From Nemertoderma westbladi (taxonomy: Eukaryota; Animalia; Xenacoelomorpha): a stretch of DNA of 47,447 nt. This document shows positions 1 through 47,447 of this stretch, piece by piece. The stretch is taken from positions 1 to 47,447 of the forward strand of contig JAUCBJ010006749.1 in NCBI GenBank assembly GCA_032718475.1, read 5' to 3'. A program made the translations under genes and the position numbers. A model generated the notes under the pieces. The model saw only the letters and a list, made by a program, of their open reading frames with translations, searched no databases and was not told the DNA's origin. Position 1 is the first letter of the stretch; every line of letters begins with the position of its first letter.

Positions 1-637
1 CGGCAATCCGTTCAGACCTAATAACAGCCAGACAACTATCCAGCCTACAAATTATCTAAATAAAATTATACGCTACCCGTACAGACTTACACAAACAAAG
101 TACAGACTAAACGATGGCAGACCACTCTCAAGCCTAAATAAACCACAGGACATGCAGACTCCGAAATGATTAGGGAGTATGCGCTCTAACCCAGTAGTGC
201 GACTTATTCTTTAGTTGGGGGATTACCTTACCGCATTGGCTGCCCCTACTTCCTAACCGTACTTAATCGGACAAGTGCTCTACACACACTGTAATCCGTT
301 CAGACTTAACAGCAATCAGACAACAGCTCAGCCTACAAATTGTCTGTACAATCTGATCAGGTTTACACGCCTTCTGTTCAATACTGGCCTACAAACAAAT
401 AAAACTTGACAGAAATAAGTAAAATCTCAATAAAAACCAGGGCTGCAGTCCCTGATTAATTATTAAGGCCTACTGGTATATAATAATCAAAATCGAATAA
501 TACTAGTGTACTTATACTGAAGTACCGGTTAGAACAGTTAGGCCTACTGACCTACAGAGTGTACCGGTTCAGGTTTACCGGTTGACCGGTACTTTCAACT
601 TTATTGCTTACTGCAACAAAGAAGCTATATCCTTTAA
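1..637 (-). mobile_element. 5' internal (leader) region of the LTR element whose 5' LTR is 638-1867; runs out of the window
   Basis: Directly follows the LTR end on the minus strand. Its TTGCAGTAAGCAATAAAGTTG resembles TTGCAGTAGGCAATAAGGTTG downstream of the LTR at 46061-47282. Contains a ~50-bp imperfect direct repeat (6-57 vs 293-346). Confidence 0.65.
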
Positions 638-1867
638 TGTTCTCGCTTTCAGACCTTTGGCAGTTTAACCCACCAAATCAAGATGTCTTCTAGATATTAA
701 ATCTGCTTTTAGTCTATGACAAATATTTGATTCACTACACTAGTCGAAACCAATCCGTGCGCGACCATTCACCCGCTGGATATTCCCGGGAGATTGGGTT
801 CGACGGTTTAATTTTATTGCTATGTAAGCCTAATGTATTATTCGACTGACAGTATTATATAATCTCTGACAATATTATTCACCTTCGGTAATATTAACAG
901 TTCCTTTAGGACGTGGCGCTTTATCTATATAAACAGAGTTATGACTTAAACTACTCACAACGATATGGCTTAATTATAATTCACATATATGGCGCATTCT
1001 TTAGGAATTGCTTCTTTAACAGACTCACTCATACACAATGCTGCACAATACTGCACACTAATCTGCCAATCTTCACTGATTTTAGTCACATATAAAAGGA
1101 ACACAGGCTGACTCATGTAGGGTCTATCAAATAACATTAGATTCACTTCAAACCACTTTAACATAAGTCACAATCGTTATTGGTAACCTTTCTCTCTTAC
1201 CTTCGGTATATCAAGAATATTGGGTTGCGGGGTTATTTATCGTTATTCCAAATATAATAATTCATCAACCATATTATGAAGAACTGACAGTAAATAGCAG
1301 TATAAACAACAACTGAACAGTTAGGTATATCGGTACATCAGTACCGGTATGTCAGCATTGAGATATTTACAGAGATATTCAAGTAGTCCGTTAAAGGATA
1401 TATGCCCTTTATAATTAAACCTACTAGTGTAAGACTAAAAGCAGTACAGCACAAAATACTTCCAAGCCGTTCTTTCTTTGGCTCAAGTCTGAATGTAAAC
1501 ACTGCACATAGGCATTGCGTCATTTCTCGGAAATTTTCTGTACAAGGAGCCACAAAAACGCTCTCATTGGCTGACTGAACTGAGAGACGCCGTAGAACAA
1601 AGGAAATCAACACGTATGAATGTCAGCTGTTAACCGTAGTCATAGTAACTACTGTTCAAGAGTAGCTATCACCCCTTTGCGTCACGAATTGCCATAGAAT
1701 CATAAAATATGCCTTTCACAGTACACATACGGAGGAAATAGGTCTTAGATCCTCTAAAAACACCGATACAGCAATAATACGGTCTCTTACACTTATTAAA
1801 TCAACTACAGAGTATTTTAATGTAAAAGATAATAAAATAACGGGGCAATTCAGCAAAGGCTTTTACA
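638..1867 (-). mobile_element. LTR copy A (5' LTR, 1230 bp) of the TGTAAAAG...AACA family, inserted into the gag of the BEL element
   Basis: Minus strand starts TGTAAAAGCCTTTG and ends GAAAGCGAGAACA. Has CCAATGAGAGCG and CAGCTG motifs and the 30-nt block GCGCCACGTCCTAAAGGAACTGTTAATATT (890-919) shared with copies B, C and D. No TSD; abuts the BEL reading frame at 1868. Confidence 0.85.
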
Positions 1868-4800
1868 CCCGAAGAAAAAACAAGTGTACACAATGTTACT
1901 CAGAGTAAGGTGAGTAACATCAAACCGAAATGTGCGCTATGTGATGGGACCCATCGCTTAAATATGTGTGATGAATTTCTAAAGAAATCATTAACTGAGA
2001 GACGTGAAGTCATGTGGGATAAGCGGTTGTGTTATAATTGCCTCAGACATGGACACCAACGGCGAACCTGTTACTCTGACACAAGATGTGCCAAGTGCGG
2101 TGCGAAACATCATATCTTGTTGCACACTGAATTCGAGCGAAATAGTCCGAGTCAGGTAAGTGATTCCGAACTACATGTCCAATTCAGTGATGTGAACGAC
2201 ACTGATCAATCTGAGATGGAAGGATTCTATACGGACGAGTTCTCCGACGAAAACGAATCCTGTTACACGATAAATACCACAGTGTATCGAGCACTCACGT
2301 ATGAAAGAGATACGGACAGCGACCTTACCCTAACTACTTCTGATCAACAACCATTTTGGAAAGCGCCAACTTCCAATGTAGGGATTAGAGAATTTCCTGT
2401 GGTACAGGTAAGGGTCCACGGACCAAAAAGGAGTTATGTAGTGAACGCCCTCCTTGACTCCGGTAGTACAGGAACATTCATCGACAAAGAGCTAGCCGAA
2501 GACATATTCGATGGACAACCCAAGTTCCGAACTAAGCTAAACATGTCAGGAATTATGCAAGTTTGGAAATCCACAGTAACAGCGGATTATTATGTAGGTG
2601 TGTTGTCCACCCCCCAGGACGAACTAGGAGAACGTAGCATAAGGTCAGTGAAAATGGTGGCTATAAAGAATTTCACTACTACTCAAGCAGACCTTTATAA
2701 TTGGGACGAGGATGAGAGCATCCAACATCTTAAGATACCTCGATTCCAGACAGATTATCCTGGAGTGCAAATACTCATCGGTCAAAATGCGCATGAAGCG
2801 CTCGAGACATTGGAGAAACGACCTGCTCAACCGCAACCTCTACAAGTTTATGCGGGAAGAACTAGAGTAGGTTGGTACTTTACTGGCCCTTCCCGTAGAA
2901 CTCTCATGGAAAGATTACCGAAAGATCAGGTATATCAAGCGCGAGAATGGGAAGTTGAGAACAGTGAGTTCGACGATCCAACTGAGGGAACTCCATACTC
3001 CTCAGACAACGACGATATACATCAACTTTTTGATGAGGAGAATGCCATCGATCTCCTTAAGGAAAGCGAGACTTGGCAAAATCAAGTGAACTTATGTCAA
3101 CTTCTTCTCCCATCCGAGCGAGACGACTATAACGACGAGCTTAATGACGTCATTGAACGTTATAATGCCAAGACTCGGGATGAACACGCCGTAAGATTCT
3201 TTACTCAAGAGGTTGTAGAGCCCAACTCCTACGATAAGGCCCTATCGGTGGAGGAAGAAAGAGCCAAGCAGATCCAAGCGACAACTACTCGTTTTCTTAA
3301 AGATCAAGGTAGGTATGAGATCGGACTTCCTTTCCGAAAGCGAGAACCGAAGTTCATTAACAACAGACCTTTGGCGGAGAAAAGAATTGCGCAACTACAT
3401 CGACGCCTTACGGCAAATTCTTCAGCTAAAGAAATGTATCAAACACAGTTGAAGAAGTTTATTAGCAAGGGATATGCGGAGCTAGTACCAGAAGAAACAC
3501 CCATAACTGAGAGAACGTATTATTTAACTCACCATTACGTTCCCAAACCCGGTAAACCCCATGAAGTACGAGTGGTGTTCGACGGCTCCGCCCTCTATAT
3601 GGGCCAATCCCTTAATTCTGAAATGTTACCCGGACCCAACTTACTCCAATCCTTGTTGGGAATATTATTAAGGTTAAGACAATACTCCATTGCTTTCGCC
3701 TCAGATATAGAAGGCATGTTCTTACAAGTCAAAGCGCTGGATAGGGATCGAGATAGTCTACGATTTTTGTGGTGGCCTGAAGGAGACCTCAATAAGAAAC
3801 CTGTGGAGTACTGGATGACCATCCAAGCTTTTGGGATAATCTCGAGCCCTTCAAACGCCTGTTCCGTGGTGCGCACCACTGCGGATGACAACCGAGACGC
3901 CTTCTCTAAAGAAGTGATTGACAATATCAAACGAGACATCTACATGGACGATAATCTGAAGTCCCTTCCATCAGTCGAAGAAGCCATTGAGGTCGCTAAA
4001 GGAACGGTAGAATGCTTAAAAAAGGGTGGATTTCGATTAACTAAATTCACTAGCAACTCCCGTGAGTTTCTGGAGTCGATCCCGGTAGAAGATCGGGGAG
4101 CAAAAGACCTAGATCTAATAAAAGATGATCTCCCAGAAACTAAGACCCTTGGTTTGAAATGGGACACAGAAAGAGATATCCTGTTTTTCCAATTAAAACA
4201 GCGAGATAATCCAGTTCGGACTAAACGGATTTGTTTAAGTATCCTGAGCACTTATTTCGATCCATTGGGATTTATTAGCCCAGTTATATTGATTGCTCGG
4301 AGTTTAGTACAACAAATGTGGCTTGAAAACCACTCATGGGACGATCCACTTAAGGGAGAATTATTAAAGAAGTGGATGAAATGGGAAGATTCTCTACCAG
4401 CCATCGAAAACTTCATAATTTCCCGTTCATATTTTGGTCATGTTCTCCCTACGTATTCATATCAACTCCATGTGTTTGGAGACGCCAGCGATATGGGAAT
4501 CGGTATAGTAGCCTACCTAAGGGTGGAAACTCCGGACGGAATTAAAGTCGCCTTGGTTACCTCTAAGGCATTAATAAACAACAAGTTGAAAGTTCCTCGA
4601 GCGGAGTTAAAAGCGGCTCTATACGCTACAGCCATCGGCCGGAATGTAACAGAACAGATCGACTATCCCCTGGAGAAAACTGTCTACTGGACCGACGCTT
4701 TACTCGTGTTGGAGTATATAACCAATGAAGTCTGTCAGTTCAGCGTCTTCGTTACCAACAGAGTAGCTATTATACTCAGTCGCACGACGATGGATCAATG

Positions 4801-6826
4801 GAGACATTGCCCCGGAACGATTAATCCAGCAGACATCGCTTCCAGGGGAGCAACTCCACAAGAACTGGTAGATACTCCAGACTGGTTAGGTGGACCCGAC
4901 TTCCTCTACCAAGAAGAAGAAGAATGGCCTCCTCATCTTACTACAGCAGAAATTAGACAGGCCAAGGGAGCGGAGAAAGTCAAACCTAAAACTCAGGCGA
5001 GTAAATCGAAGTTATTCAAACCCACAGTAGATCTGTCTGTACTACATACTTCCGGAGACGACGCTTTGGATCAGAAACCCACAGCCACAAATAAACCCAT
5101 TGTGGAAATCCGTGATAAGGATTGGAAATCTGGCATACCAGACGTCTCGCAAGGACTCTCACCTCTTCTGCAGAGAGCGATACATCACTACAGTTCCTGG
5201 AATCGGCTTTGTAAGGCCGTTACATATTTAAAGAGATGTTTTCACCATCACTACTCTGGGATGAAAACAAAGGGTGATACCGCTCCAATCACATCAGTGC
5301 AGGTCCATGTTATTAAAGACATCCCTAAATATAAGGTACCCGACAAGTTTCTGAAGGAGAAGATCAGTTATCAGGAGCATGAAGAAACCAACAAACAGAT
5401 GCTGAGACTCTTACAATGCTATGAAGATTCCGATAAGTATTTCCTGTTGTTGAGAAATCCACAGATGCGCTTAAGGGATCGTTTCTCTAGCACAATGATA
5501 GATGGGTTGATACGTGTTGGAGGAAGGTTAACGAATGCCCCATTATCCTTTGATACTAAGTTCCCCATACTCATTAGAAATCTTGAAATACAAGTCAAGA
5601 TGATTGTAGATGTTCACAGCAAACTTTATCATGCTGGTAGAGAACGAGTTCTTAGCGAAATTCGAACTCGCTATTATTTTTATAAACCCCGTAGAGCTCT
5701 GAACCAAGTTCTTAGGAACTGTATACCCTGTAGGAAAGCATTCAGTAGGCCTTTAACACAGAGAGAGGCAGAATTACCTAGGGAACGAGTAAGCTTTTAT
5801 GAACCACCCTTTACTAATACCGGTGTGGATTTATTTGGCCCTATTGAAGTATATCGTGCTAGGACTATAGTCAAGATATGGTGTGTAATCTTTGTTTGTA
5901 TGACTTGTAGAGCCATCCATCTCGATATGGTGAACGATTTATCTACCAACAGCTTTCTATTAAGCTTACGACGACAGATCGCTCGCTTTGGCACTAGTAA
6001 CACGATGAGATCTGATAAGGGAACAAACTTCATTGGTGCCAACAATGAAATCAAAGCTTACTTCAAAGATTGGAACCAAAGACAGGTGGACGACCAACTA
6101 CGAGTAACAGCGTCTAGTTGGACCTTCAACGCCGCCGACGCCCCTTGGTGGGGAGGAAGTTGGGAGAGATTAATAAGAAGCGTGAAGACAGCATTTCATT
6201 TTATAGTGCCTTGCCGCGCTTATCTCACCGACGAACTTTTGCGGACGTTAATGGAAGAAATCGCCGCCTATCTCAACGAGAGACCGCTTATGCCAGTCTC
6301 ATCGAGTCCCGATTCCCTGGAAGCGCTAACACCCGCGCACTTCCTACTGAAGAAACCTGTAGCCATGCTCCCACAATCGGAAATCACAGACGGAGACGAA
6401 TACTGCCGACAAACTTGGCAACTCATGCAGTTGTTATCCCGTCGTTTCGCCGACCATTTCGAAAAACATTATCTGCCCACGCTACAACTTCGAACTAAGT
6501 GGTTTGCGCAGCAAGAAAACGTCAGCGCTGGAGACATGGTGCTTATTGTGGATGTGGATCTTCCACGTAAGCGGTGGCAGACAGGTCGTATAATCGAGAC
6601 GCACGTCTCAGATGACGGTTTGGTGCGATCGGTAGAACTCGTCGTCATGCGACGTAACTTCAAGAAACCGGGAATTGTCTTCGAGACGCAGCAGCTCAAT
6701 CGCCCGGTGGGACGTTTATGTTTACTGGAAAGAGACAGAGAACTCTCCGGAAACTATGGGAGACAAGATACTCTTCCCACGACCACCTCCCTAATCCAAC
6801 AAACATCTAGGGACTCCCCAACTTAA
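1868..6826 (+). CDS. BEL/Pao LTR retrotransposon polyprotein (Gag zinc knuckles, protease, RT, RNase H, integrase), 5'-truncated by LTR A
   Basis: Three Cys/His knuckles (CALCDGTHRLNMC, CYNCLRHGHQRRTC, CAKCGAKHHILLH), protease LLDSGS, RT SDIEGMFLQV...LRFLWW...YMDDNLKS, RNase H LHVFGDAS...PRAELKAA...YWTD...NPADIASRG, and integrase H-H-C-C, GVDLFGP, SDKGTNF, WERLIRSVK with the BEL-type C-terminus (GDMVL...DGLVRSV...RPVGRLCLL). The frame is open from 1868; the GTG at 1910 is not a real start. Confidence 0.96.
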   Translation, partial: PEEKTSVHNVTQSKVSNIKPKCALCDGTHRLNMCDEFLKKSLTERREVMWDKRLCYNCLRHGHQRRTCYSDTRCAKCGAKHHILLHTEFERNSPSQVSDSELHVQFSDVNDTDQSEMEGFYTDEFSDENESCYTINTTVYRALTYERDTDSDLTLTTSDQQPFWKAPTSNVGIREFPVVQVRVHGPKRSYVVNALLDSGSTGTFIDKELAEDIFDGQPKFRTKLNMSGIMQVWKSTVTADYYVGVLSTPQDELGERSIRSVKMVAIKNFTTTQADLYNWDEDESIQHLKIPRFQTDYPGVQILIGQNAHEALETLEKRPAQPQPLQVYAGRTRVGWYFTGPSRRTLMERLPKDQVYQAREWEVENSEFDDPTEGTPYSSDNDDIHQLFDEENAIDLLKESETWQNQVNLCQLLLPSERDDYNDELNDVIERYNAKTRDEHAVRFFTQEVVEPNSYDKALSVEEERAKQIQATTTRFLKDQGRYEIGLPFRKREPKFINNRPLAEKRIAQLHRRLTANSSAKEMYQTQLKKFISKGYAELVPEETPITERTYYLTHHYVPKPGKPHEVRVVFDGSALYMGQSLNSEMLPGPNLLQSLLGILLRLRQYSIAFASDIEGMFLQVKALDRDRDSLRFLWWPEGDLNKKPVEYWMTIQAFGIISSPSNACSVVRTTADDNRDAFSKEVIDNIKRDIYMDDNLKSLPSVEEAIEVAKGTVECLKKGGFRLTKFTSNSREFLESIPVEDRGAKDLDLIKDDLPETKTLGLKWDTERDILFFQLKQRDNPVRTKRICLSILSTYFDPLGFISPVILIARSLVQQMWLENHSWDDPLKGELLKKWMKWEDSLPAIENFIISRSYFGHVLPTYSYQLHVFGDASDMGIGIVAYLRVETPDGIKVALVTSKALINNKLKVPRAELKAALYATAIGRNVTEQIDYPLEKTVYWTDALLVLEYITNEVCQFSVFVTNRVAIILSRTTMDQWRHCPGTINPADIASRGATPQELVDTPDWLGGPDFLYQEEEEWPPHLTTAEIRQAKGAEKVKPKTQASKSKLFKPTVDLSVLHTSGDDALDQKPTATNKPIVEIRDKDWKSGIPDVSQGLSPLLQRAIHHYSSWNRLCKAVTYLKRCFHHHYSGMKTKGDTAPITSVQVHVIKDIPKYKVPDKFLKEKISYQEHEETNKQMLRLLQCYEDSDKYFLLLRNPQMRLRDRFSSTMIDGLIRVGGRLTNAPLSFDTKFPILIRNLEIQVKMIVDVHSKLYHAGRERVLSEIRTRYYFYKPRRALNQVLRNCIPCRKAFSRPLTQREAELPRERVSFYEPPFTNTGVDLFGPIEVYRARTIVKIWCVIFVCMTCRAIHLDMVNDLSTNSFLLSLRRQIARFGTSNTMRSDKGTNFIGANNEIKAYFKDWNQRQVDDQLRVTASSWTFNAADAPWWGGSWERLIRSVKTAFHFIVPCRAYLTDELLRTLMEEIAAYLNERPLMPVSSSPDSLEALTPAHFLLKKPVAMLPQSEITDGDEYCRQTWQLMQLLSRRFADHFEKHYLPTLQLRTKWFAQQENVSAGDMVLIVDVDLPRKRWQTGRIIETHVSDDGLVRSVELVVMRRNFKKPGIVFETQQLNRPVGRLCLLERDRELSGNYGRQDTLPTTTSLIQQTSRDSPT

Positions 6827-6844
6827 AAATGGCTGGAGTGGGTG
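6827..6844 (+). promoter_or_regulatory. Polypurine-tract-like sequence after the BEL pol stop
   Basis: AAATGGCTGGAGTGGGTG lies between the stop codon and TGT, the usual BEL PPT position. Confidence 0.65.
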
Positions 6845-7256
6845 TGTGACCATATTATTTTATATTTGTATTTGTTTTATTTTTATATTTATGTATGTAT
6901 TATTATGTAATTTTATTTTAATCGTTTTATTTTATTTTATTTAGTAACATGTTATTTTAGTGATCATTTAGTAGATTAGTGCAATATATATTCGCGTTTA
7001 TAATTTAATTACGTATATTATATATTTAGTGCGACGGCGAGAAATAATTCTTTTTCTCTTTCCTTACTGCCCGTATTACATTATCAATACGTGACTACAG
7101 TAAGATGAAATCTTCGTACTTATTAAAGTACAATAAAGCCACTACTATATTCAAGTATTATTGGTAGGCAGAGTATTAGGAATGCAAAGTTCAGATCCTC
7201 GTGTCTCGGCTAAACCAAGCTCTGGGTAGACCTTGGAAACGACTTGCCTCTTCACA
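6845..7256 (+). mobile_element. Probable 3' LTR (412 bp) of the BEL element
   Basis: TGTGA...TCACA 5-bp inverted termini, preceded by a PPT-like tract, with AATAAA at 7132-7137. No second copy in the window confirms the right end. Confidence 0.55.
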
Positions 7257-7352
7257 CTGACATTGCTTCATGCGATATTGCTCTCATACCGTATATTAAA
7301 TAATACATATAGTAGCGTGATGTCCCTTTAACAGTAGCGTATAATGCAAAAT

Positions 7353-7683
7353 AAATCTGTTAAACCCTTTGACCATATGTAATTCTAGTCGATTAAGATA
7401 TCGCGGCACCCACCGATATACTTGAAAGACAAATTTCTAGAATCAATGGTTAACGTCTCCAGACAAGTTCTGGAATAAACTGGTGCCCATCCTAAATATT
7501 AATTATTAATATTTACAAAAATCTGTCAAATATCAGATCCTTTAAAATTCTAGTCGATTAAGATATCGTAGCACTTACCGATACTCTTAAAAGGACAAAA
7601 TTCCTAGAATCAAGGATCCCAGTCCCCAGACACGTTCTGGAATAAAATTGTGTCCATTTTAATATTAAATAATAAAATTTACG
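7353..7683 (+). repeat. Two ~165-bp tandem units, each a long hairpin
   Basis: AATTCTAGTCGATTAAGATATCG occurs at 7381 and 7546. Both units also share CTAGAATCAA and CCAGAC..GTTCTGGAATAAA. Confidence 0.85.
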
Positions 7684-8469
7684 GGAATAAATTTAAGTTC
7701 ATATATTTCAATGAATTTAATAAATTGTCATTTTATACAATTTATAACATTCCCAAAATTCCATTAATTAATAGATCATGGGAGCGGAGATTCACTCTAT
7801 TAAGTGTATTTGTGTGCGAGAATCTCCAATGTATAGTCAATAGCCGATAAAATTCATAGAATCATGTATAAAGGGGATATTGACCATTAAAGAATTACTA
7901 TTAAATAGCATCCCAGATCTGTATGCATGAGAATTACCCTAATTCTACCGCTAGCTTTCCATAATGTCACCATGGCAACAACCACGCTAGAATTAGAAGT
8001 GAGTTAAAAGAACAATAGAAAGCATGCCCCATTGAATAGCATAGGGAATAAATAGCGCACTGCTAGTATCCAAGGATACATAATAAATACAGTGACATTC
8101 TGGAAGGTACTGACTAACGGACAAATGGCCCGAATGTGTACAGTTTGTTGCAGTTGTGTTGAATTTGTGCGTTTGTAGGTGAATGTTACTACTAAGGTGT
8201 GTTTACAGTAGCGAGTCGCAATTGTGAAAGTAACCCTAACTCTCCAAGAAGAACCTGCAGTACATCTAAGCCTTTGGGACGGACAGTGAAGTGACTTGTG
8301 CCGGTTATCGTTGTCGTTGTGTAGCTACATCGTTGGCGAAAGCACAGCGACGACGGTACATCGGCGCTGAGGATCTTACACTGTCCGGGGGCAAAAGAGG
8401 GATAGGCAGCGACGCCCGCTAGCCTAATATATATAGACTCATTATAATATTGATAAACTCATAGCAGAT

Positions 8470-11400
8470 ATGACTGAGTTGATAGAAGATGATCTTGGCA
8501 TCAGGGAGCGATATACTCTACCTTTACAAGCGTTTGTCGATAGCTTGATACGCGGCGACGCTGGTCCAACTACTACGGAGGATGATGGTCGTTATATCGA
8601 ACCGCCGATGTCCCCGGAGCAACTTACGCGTGAATTGGACTATAGAAAGTTCACCGCTCGCTATACGCATCGTAATGGTACGTATATGGACTTCTTAACT
8701 ACCGGCCACCCTATCGATTTACACGATACGGACGATGTGGATACCGAAAGGGAAATGGTTTTATTTAAATATCATACCCAACGGAATCGGAACGATAAGC
8801 CAAGAATAGAACACGAGAACTCTATTCGAAACCGACTCGAAAGAGAAGACGTTGCAGAACCGGATAAACGCAACGACTTCAACGATTATCTGGAATTCTT
8901 GAGAGAAACATACCTCAATATTGCCAGTCAACAAAATCTCGAAACTCGATATCCTCAAGGTATACATCATGATCCTATGATAGAACTCAAACGACTCTAT
9001 TTCACTATGATGTATCTTACCGCCGATCGACCGCTACCTGTTGTCCCAGATAGCTTCGAACAGATGGAGGAATATTGTAAAACTGGAGAACGATCACCCG
9101 CGTTTCCTCTGCAAGACATGCGTCTTTGGTATTACTGTGACGAATGCCCTAGACCCAATCAGCAAACGGAAAGACATAAACATCCGCAGAGACGTTGCGC
9201 TAAACACAGTTTTACACGATATACTTACGGGAGTTTCGAGCAAAACCTGTTCGACGTGTCCCCGGCGGTCGCTCGACTCAAGCGATCCTTGAACAAACCG
9301 ATGATCAGAGTTCCGGAATACTCGGTCAGACCTCCGCATTCCTCAGTTAGACCTCAAACTCTTGACCCTAATAGTATCACGGATCCTCCCGAACTGTACT
9401 CACTGTTCAAAGATCTAGTGTTACCCGAACAGTTGATCGGTGGCACTCCGGTAGTAGGCTCACGAGACATTCGCCAACCCTACCTAGCTGGATTGGGACG
9501 TGGTCATCTAATATCGCCGTTTAACCCATACAACCGTCCCGGCTTCACCTCTATCCAACCCGTTACGGAAGTCGAAGAGAGCGTCGTACGAAACGCATTA
9601 GACGCTATTCGGCAGAAAATCGGAAAGGGAACGTACGATTGTTTGGAGAAGCGTAAATTGCAGCAACAAGTCCAAGCGGTGAAGGAATTAGCTTTACCCC
9701 AGTTCGATAGAGAAATACAAAATCTCGAGGAGGACATCGAACGTGGACGAACCTACTCTTTACAAGAGTTTCTAGATGAGCGTCTACAACAACAACCGGA
9801 GGAGAATCAGCTCGAGGAGAGACATATAGAACTGGATGAGAGAGAAGAAGCGGCTTTAGCTCAACCCGAAGCGCAAATCCTTATGACGGATCTCTACTCT
9901 AAAACCATTCTTCATCCCTCGATGGTTCCCCATTTCGGAGACAAACTTTTTGCGACGGCACAACCCCAACCGGTTGATATCAACCTAAGATCTCGCGATC
10001 TTATCGCAGACGCTCCTCTGTTGCAGCGTCCGCCCATCGAACCCGCTCGTGTCGATGGTATACTCGTTGAACCTCCGGACAATAGAGCAGATCTTGTCTG
10101 TCGCATGGTACACGATGTAAACATACGCGCTAGACCTTTACCGGACTCGTTTTATGGGATCAAAGATCACCCTTATTACGTCAATCTAAAACAATATTAC
10201 ATGGTAAAACCGGAAGATCCTACACATAGTCTGAAGTTTCTACCGTTAATAAATCCTCTCGATCTTGTCGAACTCGAACAACTGCAGAAACATCTGGATC
10301 AGTTAGTTAAAGTAAACTCGTTTCGAAAACCATATAATGTTTCCAGAATAGAGAAAGAAACAATACCTCCGTATAATCTTGATGGATTCATCAAAACTCG
10401 TTTAGTGCACTGGAATCTTGATGTGTTATTCGAGGAGGAAAGAATACAACGATATGGAGATGTGGAAACATATACCACACAATATTTAAAGTATAAAGAC
10501 CTGCCTAATGCTAGCGAATGTGCTACCTTGTGGCATCCTGTGGGAATGACACTCGAAAACGCCACTAAAGAGTGGAACGAAACTCTTAACGTTATCGAGA
10601 TGTATGGAGTTGTCACTTACGATAACGAAGGTAGCGTTCCGGTTGGAGAACTTGGAACTACGCGGATGATACATATACGAGGACTCGCTGGTTCTACCCA
10701 CGTATTTACTCGAGCGTGTTCCGACGTTATTGATTATTCTTTTGAAACTCTTACTGAGACACAAAAGAAACTCCGACATGGACAATTTGAACTCGCGCAG
10801 CGTTACGTCACCGACACCGAGCGCAAGCCGGCCATGGGTATCGATGGATCGATGTTACCCCAACCCGTGCTCGAGATGCTGTTTAACGAAGGAATCCTTA
10901 AAATCGGCTCAGCTGTTTATGGAGACCTACAGAACGACTTTCGGAATATGGAGAACATTCCATACCCCTTCGTTGATACTCAGCTGATTGCTCCTTGGGC
11001 AGAAGGCCGAGGTTTCTTCCGCACTATGTATGCCAATACACCCAGCGGAATTACCAAAGTACAACGAACCTCCATCGGACATCTTGCCTTTCAAGAATAC
11101 GGATGGAATTTCAAGGTTGGAAATCCTATAAATTACCAACAAGTATACGGAGATCACTATTCTCGTTTATACTTTGATGGACCATTGACCGCACCTGGCG
11201 CCGTGTATAGCTTTATGAGTGTTCCACTTCGTCCCTCCTTAGCTATATACACGATCTTTGAAAACGCAGCACTTGCCGGTTGGCTAGCCGATGTGTGCAG
11301 TCGTACTATACGCGCCCATCCCTTAATACTTGGAACCAAACTCGCCAAGTTAGATGAACACAATAAATTCATCCGCTTTGAATGTTTCAGGCGCTTTCTG

Positions 11401-12723
11401 ACTCCGTTCCGTAACGTTGATAGTCAGTTCAAGGACCGCGCTCTGACCAAACTCAGCCTGAGAGACTCAGCGGCGGAGAAGCTAAACAGCGCGGGATTTG
11501 CCCTTTTTCAGGACGTTTGTATACAGAACTTGCACTCATCTGTTATACAAAGACCCCGAATACCCACGGGTTATTCTGTCGTCGAAGTTCAGACAGTGGG
11601 TCCGCTTGCGGAGACAGCCGCACCTACCTCAGCTATGCAATTGGAAGACGAACCAATATGCTTAGAAGCTGAAGCGATTCAGCCTACAGCGCCCCGGAGC
11701 AGCGATAACGACTACGTCTTAGAGTGGTATCAAGGTCCACAATGTCTCACCGCATACGATTATCGACACGCTAACTATGTTTCTCGAAAACGTTGTCGAT
11801 TATGCGCATCGAGAGACCATTTCACTCCTATGGACTCAGACGTACCCTGTTCCTATTTCCACGAACAACCAATGATGGAGATATATTGTGCGTATTGCAG
11901 ACTTAATAACTCTCATATTTTTGCAGTCTGCCCCCAATTTATGACTCAATGCCACCACTGTCAACTTAAAGGACATGCCAGTTATAATTGCCCCTTTAAT
12001 CACGATATAGAGAGCGTAGATGAAATGATTACCCTGCGCTACATCCGAGCTTGGGAAGCTAACGCGGATTTACACTGTGAGTCCCGTCATCGATACTACC
12101 CTGGACGCTCTTACGAGGGAGTTTACGCGTTCCATCCTTATTTATTAGCGTCTGTGGAACAAAAAACACGCATACCGAGTTACGAGCTAATGAAGCGTGT
12201 TGGTGAGTGTATTTCCACTAAATTTGTTAGAAGATACCTTAGGAACGTCAATCCTAACGATATTACTTCATACCATTTGATCAATTATATCCGTCAAGAC
12301 CCTGAGTATGGCGATTTATTTATCAACTCGCACCCTGAGTTACAGGAAGTATCTCGACGGCCCTACGAATATCGAGCCCGAGAACGCGAGCTGGAAAGAA
12401 CTATTAAACCAAGGAAGTTTCTCACCACCCCCGGTCCGCCTACCGCCATTACCCAGACAACCCGTCAAGGACCCGTAGGAGCTGCTGTCCTGAGGCGCGC
12501 CCTAAAGGCTGTTAGACCTCGCTCCACGGAAGTTGATATCGATCAACCAGGTACCTCGACCGGCGGATACACCGATCGCAATCCGAAACCTTCTGATGCA
12601 ATTGTATTGCACCCTTCACCCAGGAGTTACAGCCCTCCTAGTAAAGTGGCTCGCCCCAAAGAGAAAAGGACTCTTGCTAGCCTCAAAAAACTGCGTAAAC
12701 GCCGTCCGCGTAAGAAAGACTAA
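8470..12723 (+). CDS. 1417-aa retroelement accessory protein: DEDDy (WRN/RNase D-like) 3'-5' exonuclease domain, CCHC zinc knuckles, basic tail
   Basis: Intact ATG-initiated ORF. ExoI-like VVTYDNEG (D at 10621), ExoII-like LPQPVLEMLFNEGILKIGSAVYGD (D at 10924), FVDTQLIA, SIGHLAFQEYGWNFK, and ExoIII-like PLRPSLAIYTIFE. Knuckles CRLCASRDH, CAYCRLNNSHIFAVC and CHHCQLKGHASYNC at 11794-11991. C-terminal KKLRKRRPRKKD. Domain call is by motif recognition only. Confidence 0.8.
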   Translation: MTELIEDDLGIRERYTLPLQAFVDSLIRGDAGPTTTEDDGRYIEPPMSPEQLTRELDYRKFTARYTHRNGTYMDFLTTGHPIDLHDTDDVDTEREMVLFKYHTQRNRNDKPRIEHENSIRNRLEREDVAEPDKRNDFNDYLEFLRETYLNIASQQNLETRYPQGIHHDPMIELKRLYFTMMYLTADRPLPVVPDSFEQMEEYCKTGERSPAFPLQDMRLWYYCDECPRPNQQTERHKHPQRRCAKHSFTRYTYGSFEQNLFDVSPAVARLKRSLNKPMIRVPEYSVRPPHSSVRPQTLDPNSITDPPELYSLFKDLVLPEQLIGGTPVVGSRDIRQPYLAGLGRGHLISPFNPYNRPGFTSIQPVTEVEESVVRNALDAIRQKIGKGTYDCLEKRKLQQQVQAVKELALPQFDREIQNLEEDIERGRTYSLQEFLDERLQQQPEENQLEERHIELDEREEAALAQPEAQILMTDLYSKTILHPSMVPHFGDKLFATAQPQPVDINLRSRDLIADAPLLQRPPIEPARVDGILVEPPDNRADLVCRMVHDVNIRARPLPDSFYGIKDHPYYVNLKQYYMVKPEDPTHSLKFLPLINPLDLVELEQLQKHLDQLVKVNSFRKPYNVSRIEKETIPPYNLDGFIKTRLVHWNLDVLFEEERIQRYGDVETYTTQYLKYKDLPNASECATLWHPVGMTLENATKEWNETLNVIEMYGVVTYDNEGSVPVGELGTTRMIHIRGLAGSTHVFTRACSDVIDYSFETLTETQKKLRHGQFELAQRYVTDTERKPAMGIDGSMLPQPVLEMLFNEGILKIGSAVYGDLQNDFRNMENIPYPFVDTQLIAPWAEGRGFFRTMYANTPSGITKVQRTSIGHLAFQEYGWNFKVGNPINYQQVYGDHYSRLYFDGPLTAPGAVYSFMSVPLRPSLAIYTIFENAALAGWLADVCSRTIRAHPLILGTKLAKLDEHNKFIRFECFRRFLTPFRNVDSQFKDRALTKLSLRDSAAEKLNSAGFALFQDVCIQNLHSSVIQRPRIPTGYSVVEVQTVGPLAETAAPTSAMQLEDEPICLEAEAIQPTAPRSSDNDYVLEWYQGPQCLTAYDYRHANYVSRKRCRLCASRDHFTPMDSDVPCSYFHEQPMMEIYCAYCRLNNSHIFAVCPQFMTQCHHCQLKGHASYNCPFNHDIESVDEMITLRYIRAWEANADLHCESRHRYYPGRSYEGVYAFHPYLLASVEQKTRIPSYELMKRVGECISTKFVRRYLRNVNPNDITSYHLINYIRQDPEYGDLFINSHPELQEVSRRPYEYRARERELERTIKPRKFLTTPGPPTAITQTTRQGPVGAAVLRRALKAVRPRSTEVDIDQPGTSTGGYTDRNPKPSDAIVLHPSPRSYSPPSKVARPKEKRTLASLKKLRKRRPRKKD

Positions 12724-12801
12724 CTGTTTAGAGTATTTTTATATTTTAGAAACTGTGATTTGTTATATTTTATAGACTTAAATCCCATTTTCTGGGAGCG
12801 G

Positions 12802-13946
12802 TGTAAAAGCTTTTGCGTAATTAACCGGTTATTTTCCCTTAAAGTACGCTGTAGTTGGTTTGCCAGGCATAAAAAGGCCGTGTCCTTGCTGTACTGGTGT
12901 TTTAGAGGACATAAAAGTCATTTCTTCTGTATTTGTACTTTAGAGGACATAATCCGCAATCTCGTGACGCGATAAGCTAGATACTCTTGAAAACAGTGTC
13001 GCTACCATGACGACGGCTAACAGCTGATATTGCCACGTCGACATTTCTTTGTTTCTTTGTTCTCTCGTTGTTCGGTTGACCAATCAGAGCGTTTTTTGAC
13101 TCTGTGTTGGATTTGGATACAGAAACTCAGTAGTTCAGTGTTATGTTTTGCCCAGAGCCTAAGAACACCGGCTTTTGGCACCTCCGTATATCAGCATTAT
13201 TTAGCTTTACATTAGTAGGCTTAATTATAGAACGTATATCTGTTATCAAACCATAACTAAACATATCATACATATCTTACTTAACATTACTGCTTTTACT
13301 GTCGGTTATTCATTATATTTGTTGATGAAATATTATATCGGAACACTGATCAATAGTCAGACACCCCACCTTCTTGATATACTAAAGGTTAGAGAGACCG
13401 GTTACAGATAAACGATTGCGACCTATGTTAAGTGGTTTGAAGTGAATCTAATGCTATTTCATATGCCCGACATAAATTGTATGTTGCTCTCTTTATACGT
13501 GACCAAATTTAGTGAAGGTCGGCAGATTAGTGTGCAGTATTGTGCAGCATTGTGTATGATTGTAACTGATAACAAAGCATCTCCTAAAGAATGCGCCATA
13601 TACGTGAATCTATAGCCTTTTCGTTGTGTCTGGTTTAAGTCATAACTCTGTTTACATATTTAGAGCGCCACGTCCTAAAGGAACTGTTAATATTTCCCGA
13701 AAGTGAATAATATTTGTCAGAGATTATATATTACGATCAGTCGAATAATACAGTAGGCTTACACCATTAATCATTAAGCTCCGAACTCAGTCTCCCGGGT
13801 ATATCCAGCGGGTGAATGATTGCGCATAGACTGGCTTCGGCTAATGTAGTGTATCAAATACTCGTCATAAGCTAAAGAATATATATCATCCAAAAGACAT
13901 CCTAATTTAGCAGGTTAAACTGTCAAAGGTCTTAAAAGCGCAAACA
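12802..13946 (+). mobile_element. LTR copy B (3' LTR, 1145 bp), preceded by PPT-like TGGGAGCGG
   Basis: TGTAAAAGCTTTTG...AAAAGCGCAAACA, with CCAATCAGAGCG and the invariant 30-mer at 13665-13694. Starts 78 bp after the 1417-aa ORF stop. Flanks AGCGG/GTAAT are not a TSD, so it is not a solo LTR. Confidence 0.85.
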
Positions 13947-14041
13947 GTAATCCACACCTATCGTTAGCCAGCTCCGTTACAAACTTGGGCCAGACATCCA
14001 GTGATCCTGTATGCCTACCAGTACCAGTTCTAGGAGTAGCC

Positions 14042-14476
14042 TTATTCTCGGCGCGCGTATTGAGCATCGTTATCAACACGAAGAGCTACGTTAGAAATGG
14101 AAGTTGAGTTCTTAGCACAAGCACTCCGTACCTCTTCAGTAAAGTTTGCGGGGTCGAAGGAAGACAAAAAATCCTTTGTCATCTCTTCAAATTTCCTTTG
14201 CAGAAAGTTCGATAATTCCCGACCGAATTTATCCAGGCTAGCTTCGATGATACTAGATATATCAGAGGTACCGGTATTACCCGGATTAAAGGTAGGAACA
14301 CCGTCCTCCGGCCCCTGTGTACTGTGAAACACGTCCTCCAAGTCAGGTGGATTGACCATCTCAGTTGGAGCCAAGTGCGCGGGGCTGGCACCAAAGCGTT
14401 TTGGGGCTGGTGAGTGAACGGAGGAAGACGAAGTTGATGCCTTAGATACCTCGCTAAGGTTTCTCTTATTATCCAT
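14042..14476 (-). pseudogene. Non-LTR retrotransposon ORF1 N-terminal fragment (CR1/L2/L1-type)
   Basis: MDNKRNLSEVS...SPAPKR, then a helical segment ending RVDNDAQYARRE, like the LEQYSRR(E/N) motif of LINE ORF1 proteins. Truncated at that point. Confidence 0.55.
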
Positions 14477-21209: not shown

Positions 21210-21977
21210 TTAGTGGGTCAGTAAAATTTTAAAAATTTTTTTTTCATTCTTTAGCTACAAGCGTTTAAAAAAGAATTGCACCAGTCGTACTGCAGTTATT
21301 CTTCAACCTTCAACCTATTATAGCTGTGAAATAGCTGAGTTATCGGACTTCGAATGTTTTATGTATTTGCTTCCACTGCAGGCCACTTGCGAATGCGAAT
21401 GAATGAAAGCAAAAATAAAAATTCTGGCTCACCCACACAAGAGGAGGGAGGAGAAACAAAATATGTATCAAATGTGATGCAATCTCATTAAGATTTTTGA
21501 AGACAATTTTTTTTTGCGGGGGGGGGGGGGGGGGGGGGGGGTCCGGTGTCCATGTCACTGAATTACCACACTATATTCCAGGATATGGTGTATTATGACA
21601 AACCTTATTACGCTCCTTCAAAGTACGGCGAATTTCTTGACAAGATCTTGCCAAATACTATTAGTTATTTAGTTTTTATGTAAGTTTTTATGTTTTTATT
21701 AAATTTCTTTAATTTCCTAACATGGGGGTAGTTTGTTACTCGAGCGAATGTAGTGAGTAAGTGTATTAATGAATCAAAAAGTGCTTATAATGTACTTTTC
21801 AACAATTGTGCACGGCTTGAAATAGTTTTAGTAAACTAAATTAAAGAAAAGTATTAAATTATATAATTATTTTACTGTATAATTAATAATTATTTTTGTA
21901 TAATATTATGAAAAACCATCTATGAATCTTATTCTGGAATAAAGTATTTAATTTTACGTAATCCATAATATCATATA

Positions 21978-22883
21978 CACCATGACCCGTAATATAGTGT
22001 CATTTTCTGATGACACGGACCCCCCCCAAAAAAATTTTTCTACAAATCTTTATCATATTGCTTGAAATTGGAAACACAACTAGTCCCACTCACCGTGGTT
22101 GTTACCATGAAGCCGGAATTTTCGATTTCGCCTTTAAATTTTATTTGTAAGCGTTTTAAAAAAGTATGTTTTGCGAAATCGCACCCTCTGTATCATTGCC
22201 ATTCTTCACTTTAGTCGTAATTTTTTCACATCAATAGAAAGCTTGCGTTGCAAGGATTCCAAATATGTAACAATGTCTGAATTTCATTGAGAAACAGCTG
22301 AGAAATAGGCATTCAAAGATTGCAAGAATTATTGTTCACTACAAGCCATTTATTATATTAAATAAATACACAAAATTCTAGAACGTGTTATTTATTTTAT
22401 GAGTTGGTAGGCAACAGCGGTATGCCTATACAATATCTATATTGCCTAGCTAATCATACATAAAAAAAAATTGTTCCAGAATATTGTGTATTTATTAAAT
22501 AGAATAAATGGCTTGCAGCGAACAATAATTCTTGCAATCTTTAAACGCCTATTTCTCAGCTGTTTCTCAATGAAATTCAGATATTGCTACATATTTGGAA
22601 TCCTTTCAACGCAAGCTTTCTATTGATATGAAAAAATTACGACTAAAGTGAAGAATGGCCACGATACGGAGGGTGCGATTTCGAAAAAGACACTTTTTTA
22701 AAACGCATATGAATAAAATTTAAAAGGCGAAATCGAAAATTCCGGCTTCATGGTAACAACCACGGTGAGTGGAACTAGTTGTGTTTCAAATTTCAAGCAA
22801 TATGATAAAGATTTGTAGAAAAATTTGGGGGGGGGGGGGGGTCCGTATCATGAGAAAATGACACTATATTACGGGTCATGGTG
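21978..22883. mobile_element. Palindromic non-autonomous DNA transposon (TA target; Tc1/mariner-like)
   Basis: TA|CACCATGACCCGTAATATAGTGTCATTTTC...GAAAATGACACTATATTACGGGTCATGGTG|TA. ~410-bp inverted arms and an ~85-bp spacer. A related terminus lies at ~21565-21592. Confidence 0.85.
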
Positions 22884-23639
22884 TATAAAAGATAATAAAG
22901 TTGAAAAATTTTAGACTTATAATTAAAATGTTTAATCGATGAATTCTGAGATTATAGCAAATTTTAGCGTTATTACAGTTAGCTGATCGTGTCTGTAAGG
23001 GGGCGGTAGATAATATAATTTAAAATTATATAAATAACTCGATTTGTTTGCTGAGGTGGCAACGTCATCGCCCAACAGTTTTTTGCAATGTTCTGATTGC
23101 CCTATTTAAATAAATTAATTATTAATTAATTATTATTTAAATACAACATTCTATACTTCATGCGACTTGGCAAACAGAGATAGTACAGGTATACAGATAG
23201 GATTTATGATAAATTAAAAAAGTCTCACAATTAATTAGAGTTAACACTGTTTCTTCAATGTTAAAATGTTAAATGTTAGATACATTTGCTTATGTAACAA
23301 GCTTTAAGATTCATTGCATTATTGATTTAAACAATGAGACTTGTAATAGAGGAGAGTGCTGGAAAGAAGGAGCTCAGTGTCACCCATAATTAACCACCTA
23401 TTGAGAATAATATCAATAACGTTGTTTGTTATAATAGGCCTACAGTGTTATTATCTGCATTACAATTGCTGTGTGCTATACATACTTTATGACGTCATGT
23501 ACGATAAGTATACAGTAGTATGCAGTAGTGTAGTAAGTAGGCAGTAGAATCAGTGTGTAGCAACCGAGCCTGAAGCATTAAATCCATCTCACCTTAATTA
23601 ATATTCCATGTATCCCTCCGCCTGCATGCCCTACACATA

Positions 23640-43250: not shown

Positions 43251-44455
43251 TGTAAAAGCTTTTGTGGGATAACTGATTCGTTTGCCTTGCTGGCCAGTTC
43301 CCCCCCGGTCGCTAGAATACTCTAAAAGGGATCTATAGCTAAAATAGTGCAAGCTACCAGCTTATTGGTTGATGTGCTGTACGAAGGTATCTGGGCTCCG
43401 TTTACTCGGCCAACCAGCTTAGGGAGGTTGCCTCAGCCTTGCTGTCCGTATCGGCCAATAGAATTTGAGTGGGCGTTGATTTTGACCTATCCCAGAGCTA
43501 CTGAACTGAATTTCCTATCTCTATGCTCATCCTCTGTGTTGGACGGGAGCTTCGGGGAATAAGGGTAGTTGGTATCCTCGTATAGTCAGGTAGTCATATG
43601 ATTCTTCATATGATTCTGTTGTTGTGTTCCCATTTTCGCCAGACCACCGGCTTTTGGGAAGAACTCTAGTAAAACTGCTTAAATTATCGAAAGTATAACT
43701 GTTATCTAATCAGCTAATCAACCAACCAACTAGTCTCACTCACTTAATTTAACTGCACTAATCATATTGTTTGTACTGTTATTTACCGTCAGTTATTAAT
43801 TGTATCTATTTGTTGATGAATTATTGCCCTTTGGAGAATACGGATAAATCACCCAAAATTCCCAATTTTCTTGATACACTACAGGTTAGAGAGACAGGCT
43901 ATACATAACAATTGCGATTTATATTAATGTGGTGTGTATTGAATCTAATGTTATTTAACAGACCCTACATGAGTCAATTGCTGCTCTCTTTATGTGTGAT
44001 CAAATTTACTGACGGTCGGCAGAATAGTGTGCATGATTGTGATTGGTAACAAAGCATTTCCTAAAGAATGCGCCTTATACTTTAATCATAAGCAGTATCG
44101 TTGCGTTTAGTATAAGTCCTAGCTCTGTTTAAATAGATAGAGCGCCACGTCCTAAAGGAACTGTTAATATTTCCCGAAAGCCAATAATATCTGTCAGAAA
44201 TTAATTATTAACGATCTATCGAATAATACAGTAGTTTTACACTGCAACCTTACACTGCAATAATACAATTTAAGCATCCGAATTCAGCCTCCCGGGTGTA
44301 GATCCATCGGGTGAATGATCGCGCATGGGCTGGCTTCGGCTAATGTTTTGTTTATTAGCATAAAATATTGTCGTATGCTAAAGGTGTTTTAATTAACTAA
44401 AAGACATATAAATTTTGGCAGGTTAAACTGCTAAAGGTCTTCAAAAGCGCGAACA
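43251..44455 (+). mobile_element. LTR copy C: solo LTR (1205 bp) defining the family boundaries
   Basis: TGCCT|TGTAAAAGCTTTTG...AAAAGCGCGAACA|TGCCT: exact 5-bp TSD and TG...CA termini. Invariant 30-mer at 44142-44171. Confidence 0.92.
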
Positions 44456-46060: not shown

Positions 46061-47282
46061 TGTAAAAGCTTTTGTGGGATAACTGATACGTTTGCCTTTG
46101 CTGGCCAGTTCCCCCCCAGGCGCTGGAATACTCTAAAAAAGGTTTTCTAACTGTATATATATTCCCCTCGCCCGCAAGGTACCTTTACAGGGGTTTTAAC
46201 GGACATAAAAGTAATTCTGCTATATACGTGTTTTAGCGGACATGGTAAGACAAAAAACTTGTAATGCACCAACCACCTTTCACAGCTTAGCCGTGATGAT
46301 TCATATTACGACATCTAGCAGCTGGTTGCTGACATGGAAACAGCCATTGGCCGCGTGGTTCTTTGTTTGGCTTGGGCCAATCAGGGCGGTTTTTCCTGTC
46401 GACGTGTAGCTTTTTAGTCGATCATAAGGAGAGTGTTCAGTCTTACTGTTTTTTCTTGATACTTTGTTGTTATTGCTGTCTAAGCCAGAAACACCGGCAT
46501 TTTTGGATAGATACTGCTGTACCGTAAACTGCTTGAATTATCGAAAGTATAAACTGTTACCGAATCGAATATCACCTAACTCATTAATCATATTGTTTGT
46601 ACTGTTATTTTACCGTCAGTTATTAATTGTAAATATTTGTTGATGGAAATATCGCTATTTGGATAATACGGATAAATCACCCAATTCCCAATTTTCTTGA
46701 TAACACTACAGGTTAGAGAGACCGGCTATACATAACAATTGCGATTTATATTAATGTGGTGTGTATTGAATCCAATGTTATTTAGCAGACCCTACGTGAG
46801 TCAATTACTGCTCTCTTTATGTGTGATCAAATGTACTGACTGTCGGCAGAATAGTGTGTATGATTGTGATTGGTAACAAAGTATTTCCTAAAGAATACGT
46901 TTTATACTTTAATCATAAGCAGTATCGTTGCGTTTAGTATAAGTCTTAGTTCTGTTTAAATAGATAAAGCGCCACGTCCTAAAGGAACTGTTAATATTTC
47001 CCGAAAGCCAATAATATCTGTCAGAGATTAATTATTAACGATCTATCGAATAATACATTAGGTATACACTGCAACCTTACACTGTAATAATACAATTCAA
47101 GCATCCGAATTCAGTCTCCCGGGTGTAGATCCATCGGGTGAATGATCGCGCATGGGCTGACTTCGGCTAATGTTTTGCGTATTAGCATAAATTATTGTCG
47201 TATGCTAAAGTGGTTTTAATTAACGAAAAGACATATAAATTTTGGCAGGTTAAACTGCTAAAGGTCTTCGAAAGCGCGAACA
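46061..47282 (+). mobile_element. LTR copy D (5' LTR, 1222 bp)
   Basis: TGTAAAAGCTTTTG...GAAAGCGCGAACA; closest to copy C; invariant 30-mer at 46969-46998. No TSD; followed by a leader similar to that after copy A. Confidence 0.9.
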
Positions 47283-47447
47283 GTAACAGTTTATCTTGTA
47301 TTGCAGTGTAAGTATTAAATACAGTTTAATACTGTTCTGTCGAACAGTAACAGTTTATAAATCTTATTGCAGTAGGCAATAAGGTTGCAAGTGTAGGCAT
47401 TAAATACAGTTTAATACTGTTCTGACGAACAGTAACAGTTTAAAATC
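47283..47447 (+). mobile_element. Start of the internal leader after LTR D, with repeated U5-end/primer-site units
   Basis: CGAACAGTAACAGTTTA at 47277, 47341 and 47426; TAAATACAGTTTAATACTGTTCTG twice. Confidence 0.75.

What the first reader, a model, noticed from the sequence alone, without database searches (positions are those of the whole stretch)
626..1402. Second 5' LTR shows the same 12-bp pairing with a different sequence
Seen: on the minus strand LTR A ends ...GAGAACA (638) and is followed by TTAAAGGATATA (637-626). Its perfect complement TATATCCTTTAA is at 1402-1391, LTR position 466-477, homologous to position 489-500 in copy D and shortly after a conserved AATTAT. The A and D 12-mers differ at about half of their positions, yet each pairs 12/12 with its own leader, and both are followed by CG. 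The 3' LTR B (TATATCTGTTAT, 13235-13246) and solo LTR C (TATAACTGTTAT, 43694-43705) carry the homologous segment but their flanks do not pair with it, as expected. Inference: the pairing, not the sequence, is under selection. Prediction: elements with LTR B have a leader starting approximately ATAACAGATATA.
Basis: partly seen in the sequence, partly recalled or inferred. Interest (0 to 1): 0.88.

Follow-up and report, generated by a model that had tools for sequence, protein, structure and literature searches.

The report
Self-priming retrotransposon with an internal decoy
A family of jumping genes has no standard tRNA landing site: the 12 bases after its terminal repeat match a stretch inside the repeat, and that stretch also matches a look-alike site within the repeat, so the element likely starts copying itself with its own RNA and likely uses the look-alike to mask this primer when it is not at the RNA's front end.

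Summary
LTRs A and D each carry a 12-mer that pairs 12/12 with the bases right after their own LTR; the two 12-mers differ at 7 of 12 positions. The prediction partly holds: in two independent studies a contig joins a C-type LTR end to a leader pairing 11/12 with C's 12-mer. The B-type leader was not seen. This is the signature of Tf1-type self-priming.

New here: in all four LTRs the same 12-mer also pairs with a PBS look-alike 330-420 nt downstream, split by a small hairpin. Over 16 pairs, 63 of 64 cells pair and 6 pairs change on both sides. Folding predicts that this helix masks the primer when U3 lies upstream (16 of 17 tests). For RNA starting at the 12-mer, the PBS wins 11 of 17, so that side is not robust.

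Element B carries a 1.4-kaa ORF resembling a 3'-5' exonuclease with zinc knuckles. Transcription start, cleavage and superfamily are not shown. The scan noted self-priming before in other BEL/Pao, Gypsy and Copia genomes, but not this decoy helix. Verdict: new variant of a known kind.

The parts
638..1867 (-). LTR A, 5' LTR (TG...CA, 1230 nt), inserted in a BEL/Pao pol ORF
1391..1402 (-). A: candidate self-primer 12-mer
626..637 (-). A: PBS position, 12/12 complement of the 12-mer, not TGG-starting
983..1021 (-). A: PBS look-alike (decoy), two arms split by a 23-nt loop (1013-991)
962..982 (-). A: partner of the U3-side arm (about 1409-1421) that extends the masking helix (H3)
656..677 (-). 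Hairpin near the LTR 3' end, predicted in all four LTRs
1..625 (-). A leader, non-coding as far as seen; a 29-nt stretch is 86% identical to D's leader
8470..12723 (+). Intact ORF before LTR B (1428 codons stop to stop from 8437): likely DEDD-type 3'-5' exonuclease region plus three Cys/His knuckles
12790..12801 (+). G-rich tract before LTR B, likely the polypurine tract (7 of 12 purines)
12802..13946 (+). LTR B, 3' LTR (1145 nt); long contigs of three runs (two studies) match the flank from 13947 on
13235..13246 (+). B: homologous 12-mer
13567..13605 (+). B: decoy
43251..44455 (+). LTR C, solo LTR with 5-bp target duplication (43246-43250 and 44456-44460)
43694..43705 (+). C: homologous 12-mer
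44044..44082 (+). C: decoy
46061..47282 (+). LTR D, 5' LTR (1222 nt)
46549..46560 (+). D: candidate self-primer 12-mer
46871..46909 (+). D: decoy
47283..47294 (+). D: PBS, 12/12 complement
47342..47443 (+). D leader: two further copies of the LTR-end plus PBS junction (PBS copies at 47347 and 47432)

Best explanation
This LTR retrotransposon family likely primes its own reverse transcription with a 12-base stretch of its LTR that is complementary to the bases right after the 5' LTR, and it likely uses a second complementary site inside the LTR to mask that primer when upstream LTR sequence is present.

Shown: two mutually exclusive pairings of one 12-mer, both kept through sequence change, and no TGG-type tRNA site.

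Inferred: transcription starts at or within a few bases of the 12-mer. At the RNA's 5' end the masking helix then lacks its U3-side arm, the two folds are near balance, and the 12-mer can reach the PBS, probably with help from Gag. RNase H would cut after it to give the 3'-OH, as in Tf1. In the 3' LTR copy of the RNA, and in transcripts that start further upstream, U3 is present, so the full helix would form and that primer copy could not occupy the PBS. This needs R to extend at least about 445 nt.
For: Primer-PBS pairing: 12/12 in A and D with 7 of 12 differences, and 11/12 for a C-type junction seen in two studies.

Internal helix: 63 of 64 cells paired over 16 pairs in 4 LTRs, 6 pairs changed on both sides, and one extra base in D that gains a partner. 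Sliding the partner by 1-3 nt gives 16-34 of 64 cells and 0-2 double changes. Duplex energy is matched or beaten by 0, 17, 0 and 3 of 500 shuffles for A, B, C, D. The loop hairpin is predicted in all four, with a two-sided change in D. The decoy reads like the PBS with the central G replaced by the 23-nt loop.

The helix includes bases upstream of the 12-mer: three pairs in all four LTRs, two with double changes, plus H3 in A, C and D at 1, 0 and 5 of 300 shuffles. So an RNA holding U3 is likely under selection.

Folding: with 25 nt of U3 the internal helix wins in 11 of 11 (A) and 5 of 6 (D) 3' cut-offs. Constrained energies flip from 1.8 and 2.4 kcal/mol in favour of the PBS to 6.5 and 5.2 in favour of the internal helix. 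Conservation is low 5' of the 12-mer and high further 3', as expected of U3 against R-U5 (PMC3601003, passages).
Against: No RNA data: the runs listed are contigs and none is on record as RNA, so start site, poly(A) site and cleavage are not shown.

There is no TATA box 25-30 nt upstream of the 12-mer, and no poly(A) hexamer is conserved in register. An initiator-like TCAGTT lies 65-115 nt downstream of the 12-mer in A, C and D; a start there would exclude the primer from the 5' end.

The 5'-end side of the switch is not robust. Starting at the 12-mer, the PBS wins in only 6 of 11 cut-offs for A (none of the 5 with the longest leader) and 5 of 6 for D (also at 15, 25 and 37 C). The margin is within model error.

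B's helix is the weakest: another window of its own LTR scores better, 16 of 500 background windows match it, and its H3 is matched by 43 of 300 shuffles. Only four LTRs were compared, C and D are 94% alike in this part, and the structure was derived from these same sequences, which inflates the paired count. The B-type leader was not seen. Tf1's flanking duplexes are not above shuffles.
Confidence: 0.6

Rival explanations
1. Hold and release at the 5' end. Transcription starts at least 20-25 nt upstream of the 12-mer, the full internal helix forms as the RNA is made and keeps the primer off during export and translation, and Gag refolds it onto the PBS in the particle, where it is cut. Still self-priming, but the decoy is a timer, not a mask for the 3' copy.
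For: The U3-side pairs covary. The decoy is transcribed 340-410 nt before the PBS. The internal helix also wins for A with long leaders.
Against: With upstream sequence the PBS fold is 5-6.5 kcal/mol uphill. Primer-PBS pairing stops at the T-A-T-A start of the 12-mer in A and D and one base short of it in the C-type junction, as a fixed RNA 5' end would give.
Confidence: 0.2
2. The primer comes from the 3' end of the RNA. The element's exonuclease-like ORF trims the 3' LTR copy back until the 12-mer, paired to the PBS, blocks it, leaving a 3'-OH; transcription starts downstream of the 12-mer.
For: Element B carries an intact ORF with exonuclease-like motifs and knuckles. An initiator-like hexamer lies downstream of the 12-mer in 3 of 4 LTRs. 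The 3' copy necessarily holds U3.
Against: Trimming would destroy the 3' R needed for strand transfer in that molecule. The model does not explain the fixed 5' limit of the pairing. The nuclease assignment is only moderate: Atlas score 0.90, no Pfam exonuclease hit on the ORF itself. A distant BEL relative (L049) has an 11-nt self-pair and no hit to this ORF, though only about 2 kb downstream of its pol was fetched.
Confidence: 0.08
3. The pairings are structural only (packaging, dimerisation or translation control), and priming uses a host RNA such as a tRNA fragment or small RNA.
For: Priming was not observed. Half-tRNA priming exists in other lineages (PMC6317226, passages). No host tRNA set was available to test.
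Against: Three different leader sequences sit exactly at the PBS position and follow the element's own 12-mer, which one host RNA could not do.
Confidence: 0.08
4. Chance, or a DNA-level copying accident with no function.
For: The sequence is AT-rich, and the empirical window null reaches 1.3% for a match of 12 or more anywhere upstream.
Against: The same register in diverged copies, cognate specificity, a third case from outside the window, and covariation with a second partner.
Confidence: 0.03

Closest known systems
Tf1/Tf2 (Schizosaccharomyces pombe), Tj1 and the Tf1/sushi chromoviruses
   Same: PBS directly after the 5' LTR, complementary to a short segment of the element's own LTR, with no tRNA site (PMC4600332, PMC10085805, PMC5341516; passages). 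In Tf2 the choice of start site decides whether the RNA can prime (PMC5341516).
   Different: The primer-to-PBS distance is about 720-750 nt in a 1.2-kb LTR. The two flanking 'pretzel' duplexes are not found above shuffles. Instead a competing, covarying helix sequesters the primer. No chromodomain or Tf1-type RT is linked.
Plant Tcn1 (Gypsy) and TAR (Copia) lineages
   Same: Self-priming predicted from PBS-LTR complementarity (PMC6317226, passages).
   Different: Different host group; no masking helix is mentioned in the passages read.
BEL/Pao (Belpaoviridae)
   Same: LTR length at the top of the 0.2-1.2 kb range. The G-rich tract before LTR B resembles by eye those of BEL loci. 0 of 9 BEL loci with a clear CA-ended 5' LTR have a TGG-starting leader, and 2 of the 9 self-pair over 11 and 9 nt.
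   Different: The ICTV profile (PMC8742986, whole text) gives an 18-nt PBS for tRNA-Arg or tRNA-Gly, which is absent here. The window's BEL pol is not shown to belong to this family.
Bdelloid rotifer Juno and Vesta elements with a DEDDy ORF3
   Same: An exonuclease-like extra ORF directly before the 3' LTR (PMC5408684, parts 1-3 of 5).
   Different: Those LTRs are 159-551 bp. The ORF here is about 1400 aa with three knuckles and a long unassigned N-terminal part. No direct sequence comparison was made, and their priming is not described in the text read.

Membership tests
Tf1/sushi group | PBS complementary to the element's own LTR instead of a tRNA 3' end | tested here: met
Tf1/sushi group | [quoted passage not shown] | not testable with these tools
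   only contigs were available; folding gives indirect, non-robust support
Tf1/sushi group | Three-duplex 'pretzel': two further duplexes flanking primer and PBS | tested here: not met
   27, 15, 44 and 130 of 300 shuffles match or beat the four candidates; best partners of the post-PBS sequence differ between A and D
Tf1/sushi group | Chromovirus RT and integrase with chromodomain | not testable with these tools
   no pol is linked to LTRs A-D; the only RT found in the window's long ORFs is BEL/Pao
Tf1/sushi group | RNase H-dependent cleavage releases the primer | not testable with these tools
   needs experiment
BEL/Pao (Belpaoviridae) | BEL-type pol between the family's LTRs | tested here: inconclusive
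   BEL pol 1841-6826 lies upstream of B in the same orientation, but a G-rich tract plus TG at 6835-6843 sits 113 nt after the end of pol homology, against 116-264 nt to the 3' LTR in 13 BEL loci; so it likely has its own LTR
BEL/Pao (Belpaoviridae) | 18-nt PBS for tRNA-Arg or tRNA-Gly | tested here: not met
   leaders do not start with TGG; definition from PMC8742986
BEL/Pao (Belpaoviridae) | LTRs of 0.2-1.2 kb and a polypurine tract of about 10 nt | tested here: met
   LTRs 1145-1230 nt; tract 7 of 12 purines; not specific to this family
LTR elements with a DEDDy ORF3 (Juno/Vesta type) | Extra ORF directly upstream of the 3' LTR | tested here: met
   ORF ends 78 nt before LTR B
LTR elements with a DEDDy ORF3 (Juno/Vesta type) | DEDDy exonuclease domain with intact acidic residues | tested here: inconclusive
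   Atlas first hit 0.90, 171 of 256 features, PF01612 plus zf-CCHC; 30% identity to P0003 over 150 aa; acidic motifs matched by eye at residues about 729, 830 and 942; no Pfam exonuclease hit; models failed (pLDDT 30 and 33.5)
LTR elements with a DEDDy ORF3 (Juno/Vesta type) | Juno/Vesta RT clade and dUTPase | not testable with these tools
   no linked pol

The most novel reading that the evidence does not exclude
A self-priming animal LTR retrotransposon, possibly BEL/Pao, has evolved an RNA switch: one 12-mer covaries with two partners, and the presence of upstream U3 sequence alone decides whether it is masked by an internal PBS decoy or free to prime. This would tell the 5' copy from the 3' copy and make start-site choice an on/off control of replication, in an element that also carries its own exonuclease-like gene.
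Probability: 0.4. Interest if true: 0.8.

Novelty: new variant of a known kind. Interest (0 to 1): 0.66.

Why it matters
Any self-priming element whose R region includes the primer carries it twice, once at each end of its RNA. How the 3' copy is kept off the PBS is not addressed in the papers I read. This family offers a concrete answer with natural covariation to test it.

It also extends self-priming to a likely high-copy family in a likely animal host. Such elements would escape control by tRNA fragments and be missed by annotation that requires a tRNA PBS. The three-way rule (leader = decoy = complement of the 12-mer) can be checked on any assembly of this species.

Tried and rejected
No genome is held for the window, so other copies could not be read whole. 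No RNA holder was listed, which is no evidence on expression; run X5 (RNA by guess, another organism label, share 0.10) gave 6 contigs and no start information. Laying contigs on LTR B showed no loose end at 13946 among the 24 of 546 rows displayed.

Searches that found nothing: the conserved LTR motif in metagenome contigs; ORF3 region in the word-index protein search; relatives of P0003; P0004 in genome contigs; BEL profile in viral contigs; ORF3 or LTR homology in 0 of 79 BEL loci. Rfam gave one chance-level hit over 1-14100; no tRNA gene in the window. Both structure models of ORF3 were unusable, so no fold search was run. The Atlas search of the ORF's N-terminal part did not complete.

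Ideas rejected: the 12-mer as a TATA box (three of four copies have C at position 6 of TATA); a ribozyme in the LTR (no Rfam hit); a conserved ORF in the LTR (longest open frames differ among copies). GC3 of pol and ORF3 is alike (0.44 and 0.43) and does not decide linkage. One search counted D's pairs in a wrong register (58 of 64); one search corrects it after allowing D's one-base insertion, a choice made by me.

Literature: searches (mostly seen as listings) showed no paper on a primer-masking helix or on self-priming in BEL/Pao. The library lacks most subscription papers. I did not read the original Tf1 papers or any supplement.

Full report
What is in the window. Four related LTRs of 1145-1230 nt with TG...CA ends: A (1867..638, minus strand), B (12802..13946), C (43251..44455) and D (46061..47282). 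A and D are followed by homologous leader sequence (a 29-nt stretch at 86%), so they are 5' LTRs. B follows a long ORF and a G-rich tract and is a 3' LTR. C is solo, with a 5-bp target duplication. A interrupts a BEL/Pao ORF. BEL/Pao elements are described from metazoans (PMC8742986, whole text) and nearly all named homologues are from animals, so the host is likely an animal. Summed contig depth over the LTR is hundreds to thousands of times that of the flank, which suggests a high-copy family, though the tool warns that this is not a copy number.

The observation. It is exact. The complement starts at the first base after the LTR and is 12 nt in both A and D. The 12-mers differ at 7 of 12 positions and do not cross-pair. 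Chance from composition is about 2e-7 at a fixed place and 2-3.5e-4 anywhere in the LTR. An unmasked empirical null on this repeat-rich window gives 265 of 20000, or 69 of 20000 in register.

The prediction. I laid contigs of four runs on 585-690. Of 24 loose-end rows, 14 were shown. Two of them, single contigs in X3 and X1 (different studies), give a leader starting ATAACAGTTATT; in X3 it follows an LTR end matching C at 17 of 18 bases. It pairs 11 of 12 with C's 12-mer, and the mismatch is with the primer's first base. For B, only one of three expected leader changes was seen at 1% depth or more (position 633), and it cannot be linked to an LTR type. So C is supported and B is open.

The second partner. 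Folding showed that primer-PBS pairing vanishes when 20 or more upstream bases are added. The cause is a long-range helix inside the LTR, found at the homologous place in all four copies. The two halves of the 12-mer pair on either side of a bulged, invariant C with a site about 330-420 nt downstream. That site reads like the PBS with its central G replaced by a 23-nt loop. Over 16 pairs and 4 LTRs, 63 of 64 cells pair and 6 pairs show changes on both sides. Slid registers give 16-34 of 64 and 0-2. Crossing arms between copies lowers the count from 15-16 to 10-14, except between the near-identical C and D. Shuffle tests are strong for A, C and D and weak for B (0, 0, 3 and 17 of 500). The helix extends into bases upstream of the 12-mer, and a further arm (H3) is clear in A, C and D but not B. 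Caveats: four related sequences, a structure read from those sequences, and one register choice for D's extra base (one search had it wrong).

How it likely works. The PBS position and covariation point to Tf1-type self-priming, as summarised in PMC4600332, PMC10085805 and PMC5341516 (passages only; the original Tf1 papers were not read). With U3 upstream, the internal helix wins in 16 of 17 folding tests. Starting at the 12-mer, the PBS wins in 11 of 17, failing for A whenever a long leader is included. Constrained energies flip from about 2 kcal/mol for the PBS to 5-6.5 for the internal helix. The simplest reading is a start at the 12-mer, near balance at the 5' end, and firm masking of the 3' copy and of upstream-start transcripts. 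Start site, poly(A) site, chaperoning and cleavage are all inferred. No TATA box at -30 and no conserved poly(A) hexamer were found, and an initiator-like hexamer lies downstream of the 12-mer in three copies. Hold-and-release with an upstream start is the main rival; a 3'-derived primer trimmed by the element's exonuclease-like protein is a minor one.

The extra ORF. 8470-12723 had no Pfam hit at E 0.001. A search of 1.84 billion representatives gave 2 hits, both with acidic motifs and Cys/His knuckles. The knuckles match nucleocapsid and Lin28 chains. The Atlas first hit is an exonuclease plus CCHC cluster at 0.90. Acidic motifs were matched to P0003 by eye. This is moderate evidence. Rotifer LTR elements carry DEDDy ORF3s (PMC5408684, parts 1-3 of 5).

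Superfamily. Not shown. The BEL pol upstream of B likely has its own 3' LTR at 6843: 113 nt after the end of homology, against 116-264 nt in 13 BEL loci. I fetched 79 BEL loci; 32 had terminal repeats and I inspected 22. Nine had a clear CA-ended 5' LTR: none starts with TGG and two self-pair (11 and 9 nt). With the look of B's purine tract, this makes BEL/Pao plausible (my estimate about 55%) but unproven. Membership of Tf1/sushi is not claimed: the pretzel test failed and no chromovirus pol is linked.

Novelty. Self-priming is known, and is predicted in plant lineages (PMC6317226, passages). This scan noted it before in BEL/Pao, Gypsy and Copia elements of other genomes (unchecked AI notes, used as leads only). 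It found no note on this sequence or on a masking helix. Paper searches showed none either, within an open-access library and mostly from listings. PMC5443660 and PMC6934838 were seen as passages; a term search in PMC3118150 returned nothing; no supplements were read. Verdict: new variant of a known kind, interest 0.66.

Noticed in passing
window 47278-47447 (+): D's leader holds three tandem copies of the last LTR bases plus the PBS, 64 and 85 nt apart; in folding, the primer can pair with any of them.
   Followed up: partly
window 1841-6826 (+) and 6835-7270: Uninterrupted BEL/Pao ORF from the gag knuckles to the integrase end, cut at its 5' side by element A and followed by an AT-rich, LTR-like stretch whose end I did not define.
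   Followed up: partly
window 8150-8215 (+): Two splice-acceptor-like sites upstream of the exonuclease-like ORF, seen by eye, consistent with expression from a spliced RNA.
   Followed up: no
window 29500-29853 (-): Fifth, truncated copy of the LTR's 5' part; similarity ends before the 12-mer.
   Followed up: partly
L049:145-340 and L041:1-120: Distant BEL/Pao loci whose leaders pair 11 and 9 nt with their own LTR from the first base after it. Seven other clear CA-ended 5' LTRs have neither TGG nor a contiguous match of more than 7 nt; spliced primers were not tested.
   Followed up: partly
window 21974-22887: A 914-bp near-perfect palindrome (89% identity), probably a foldback element.
   Followed up: no
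window 41028-42504: Arrays of a 15/17-bp unit in opposite orientations, with related pieces near 24566-24994.
   Followed up: no
window 45451-45969 (+): Endonuclease/phosphatase domain fragment, likely from a non-LTR element, ending just before LTR D.
   Followed up: no
window 13947-14050: Long contigs in X1, X2 and X3 match this flank from 13947 and continue into other sequence, suggesting the B insertion is absent or polymorphic there.
   Followed up: no
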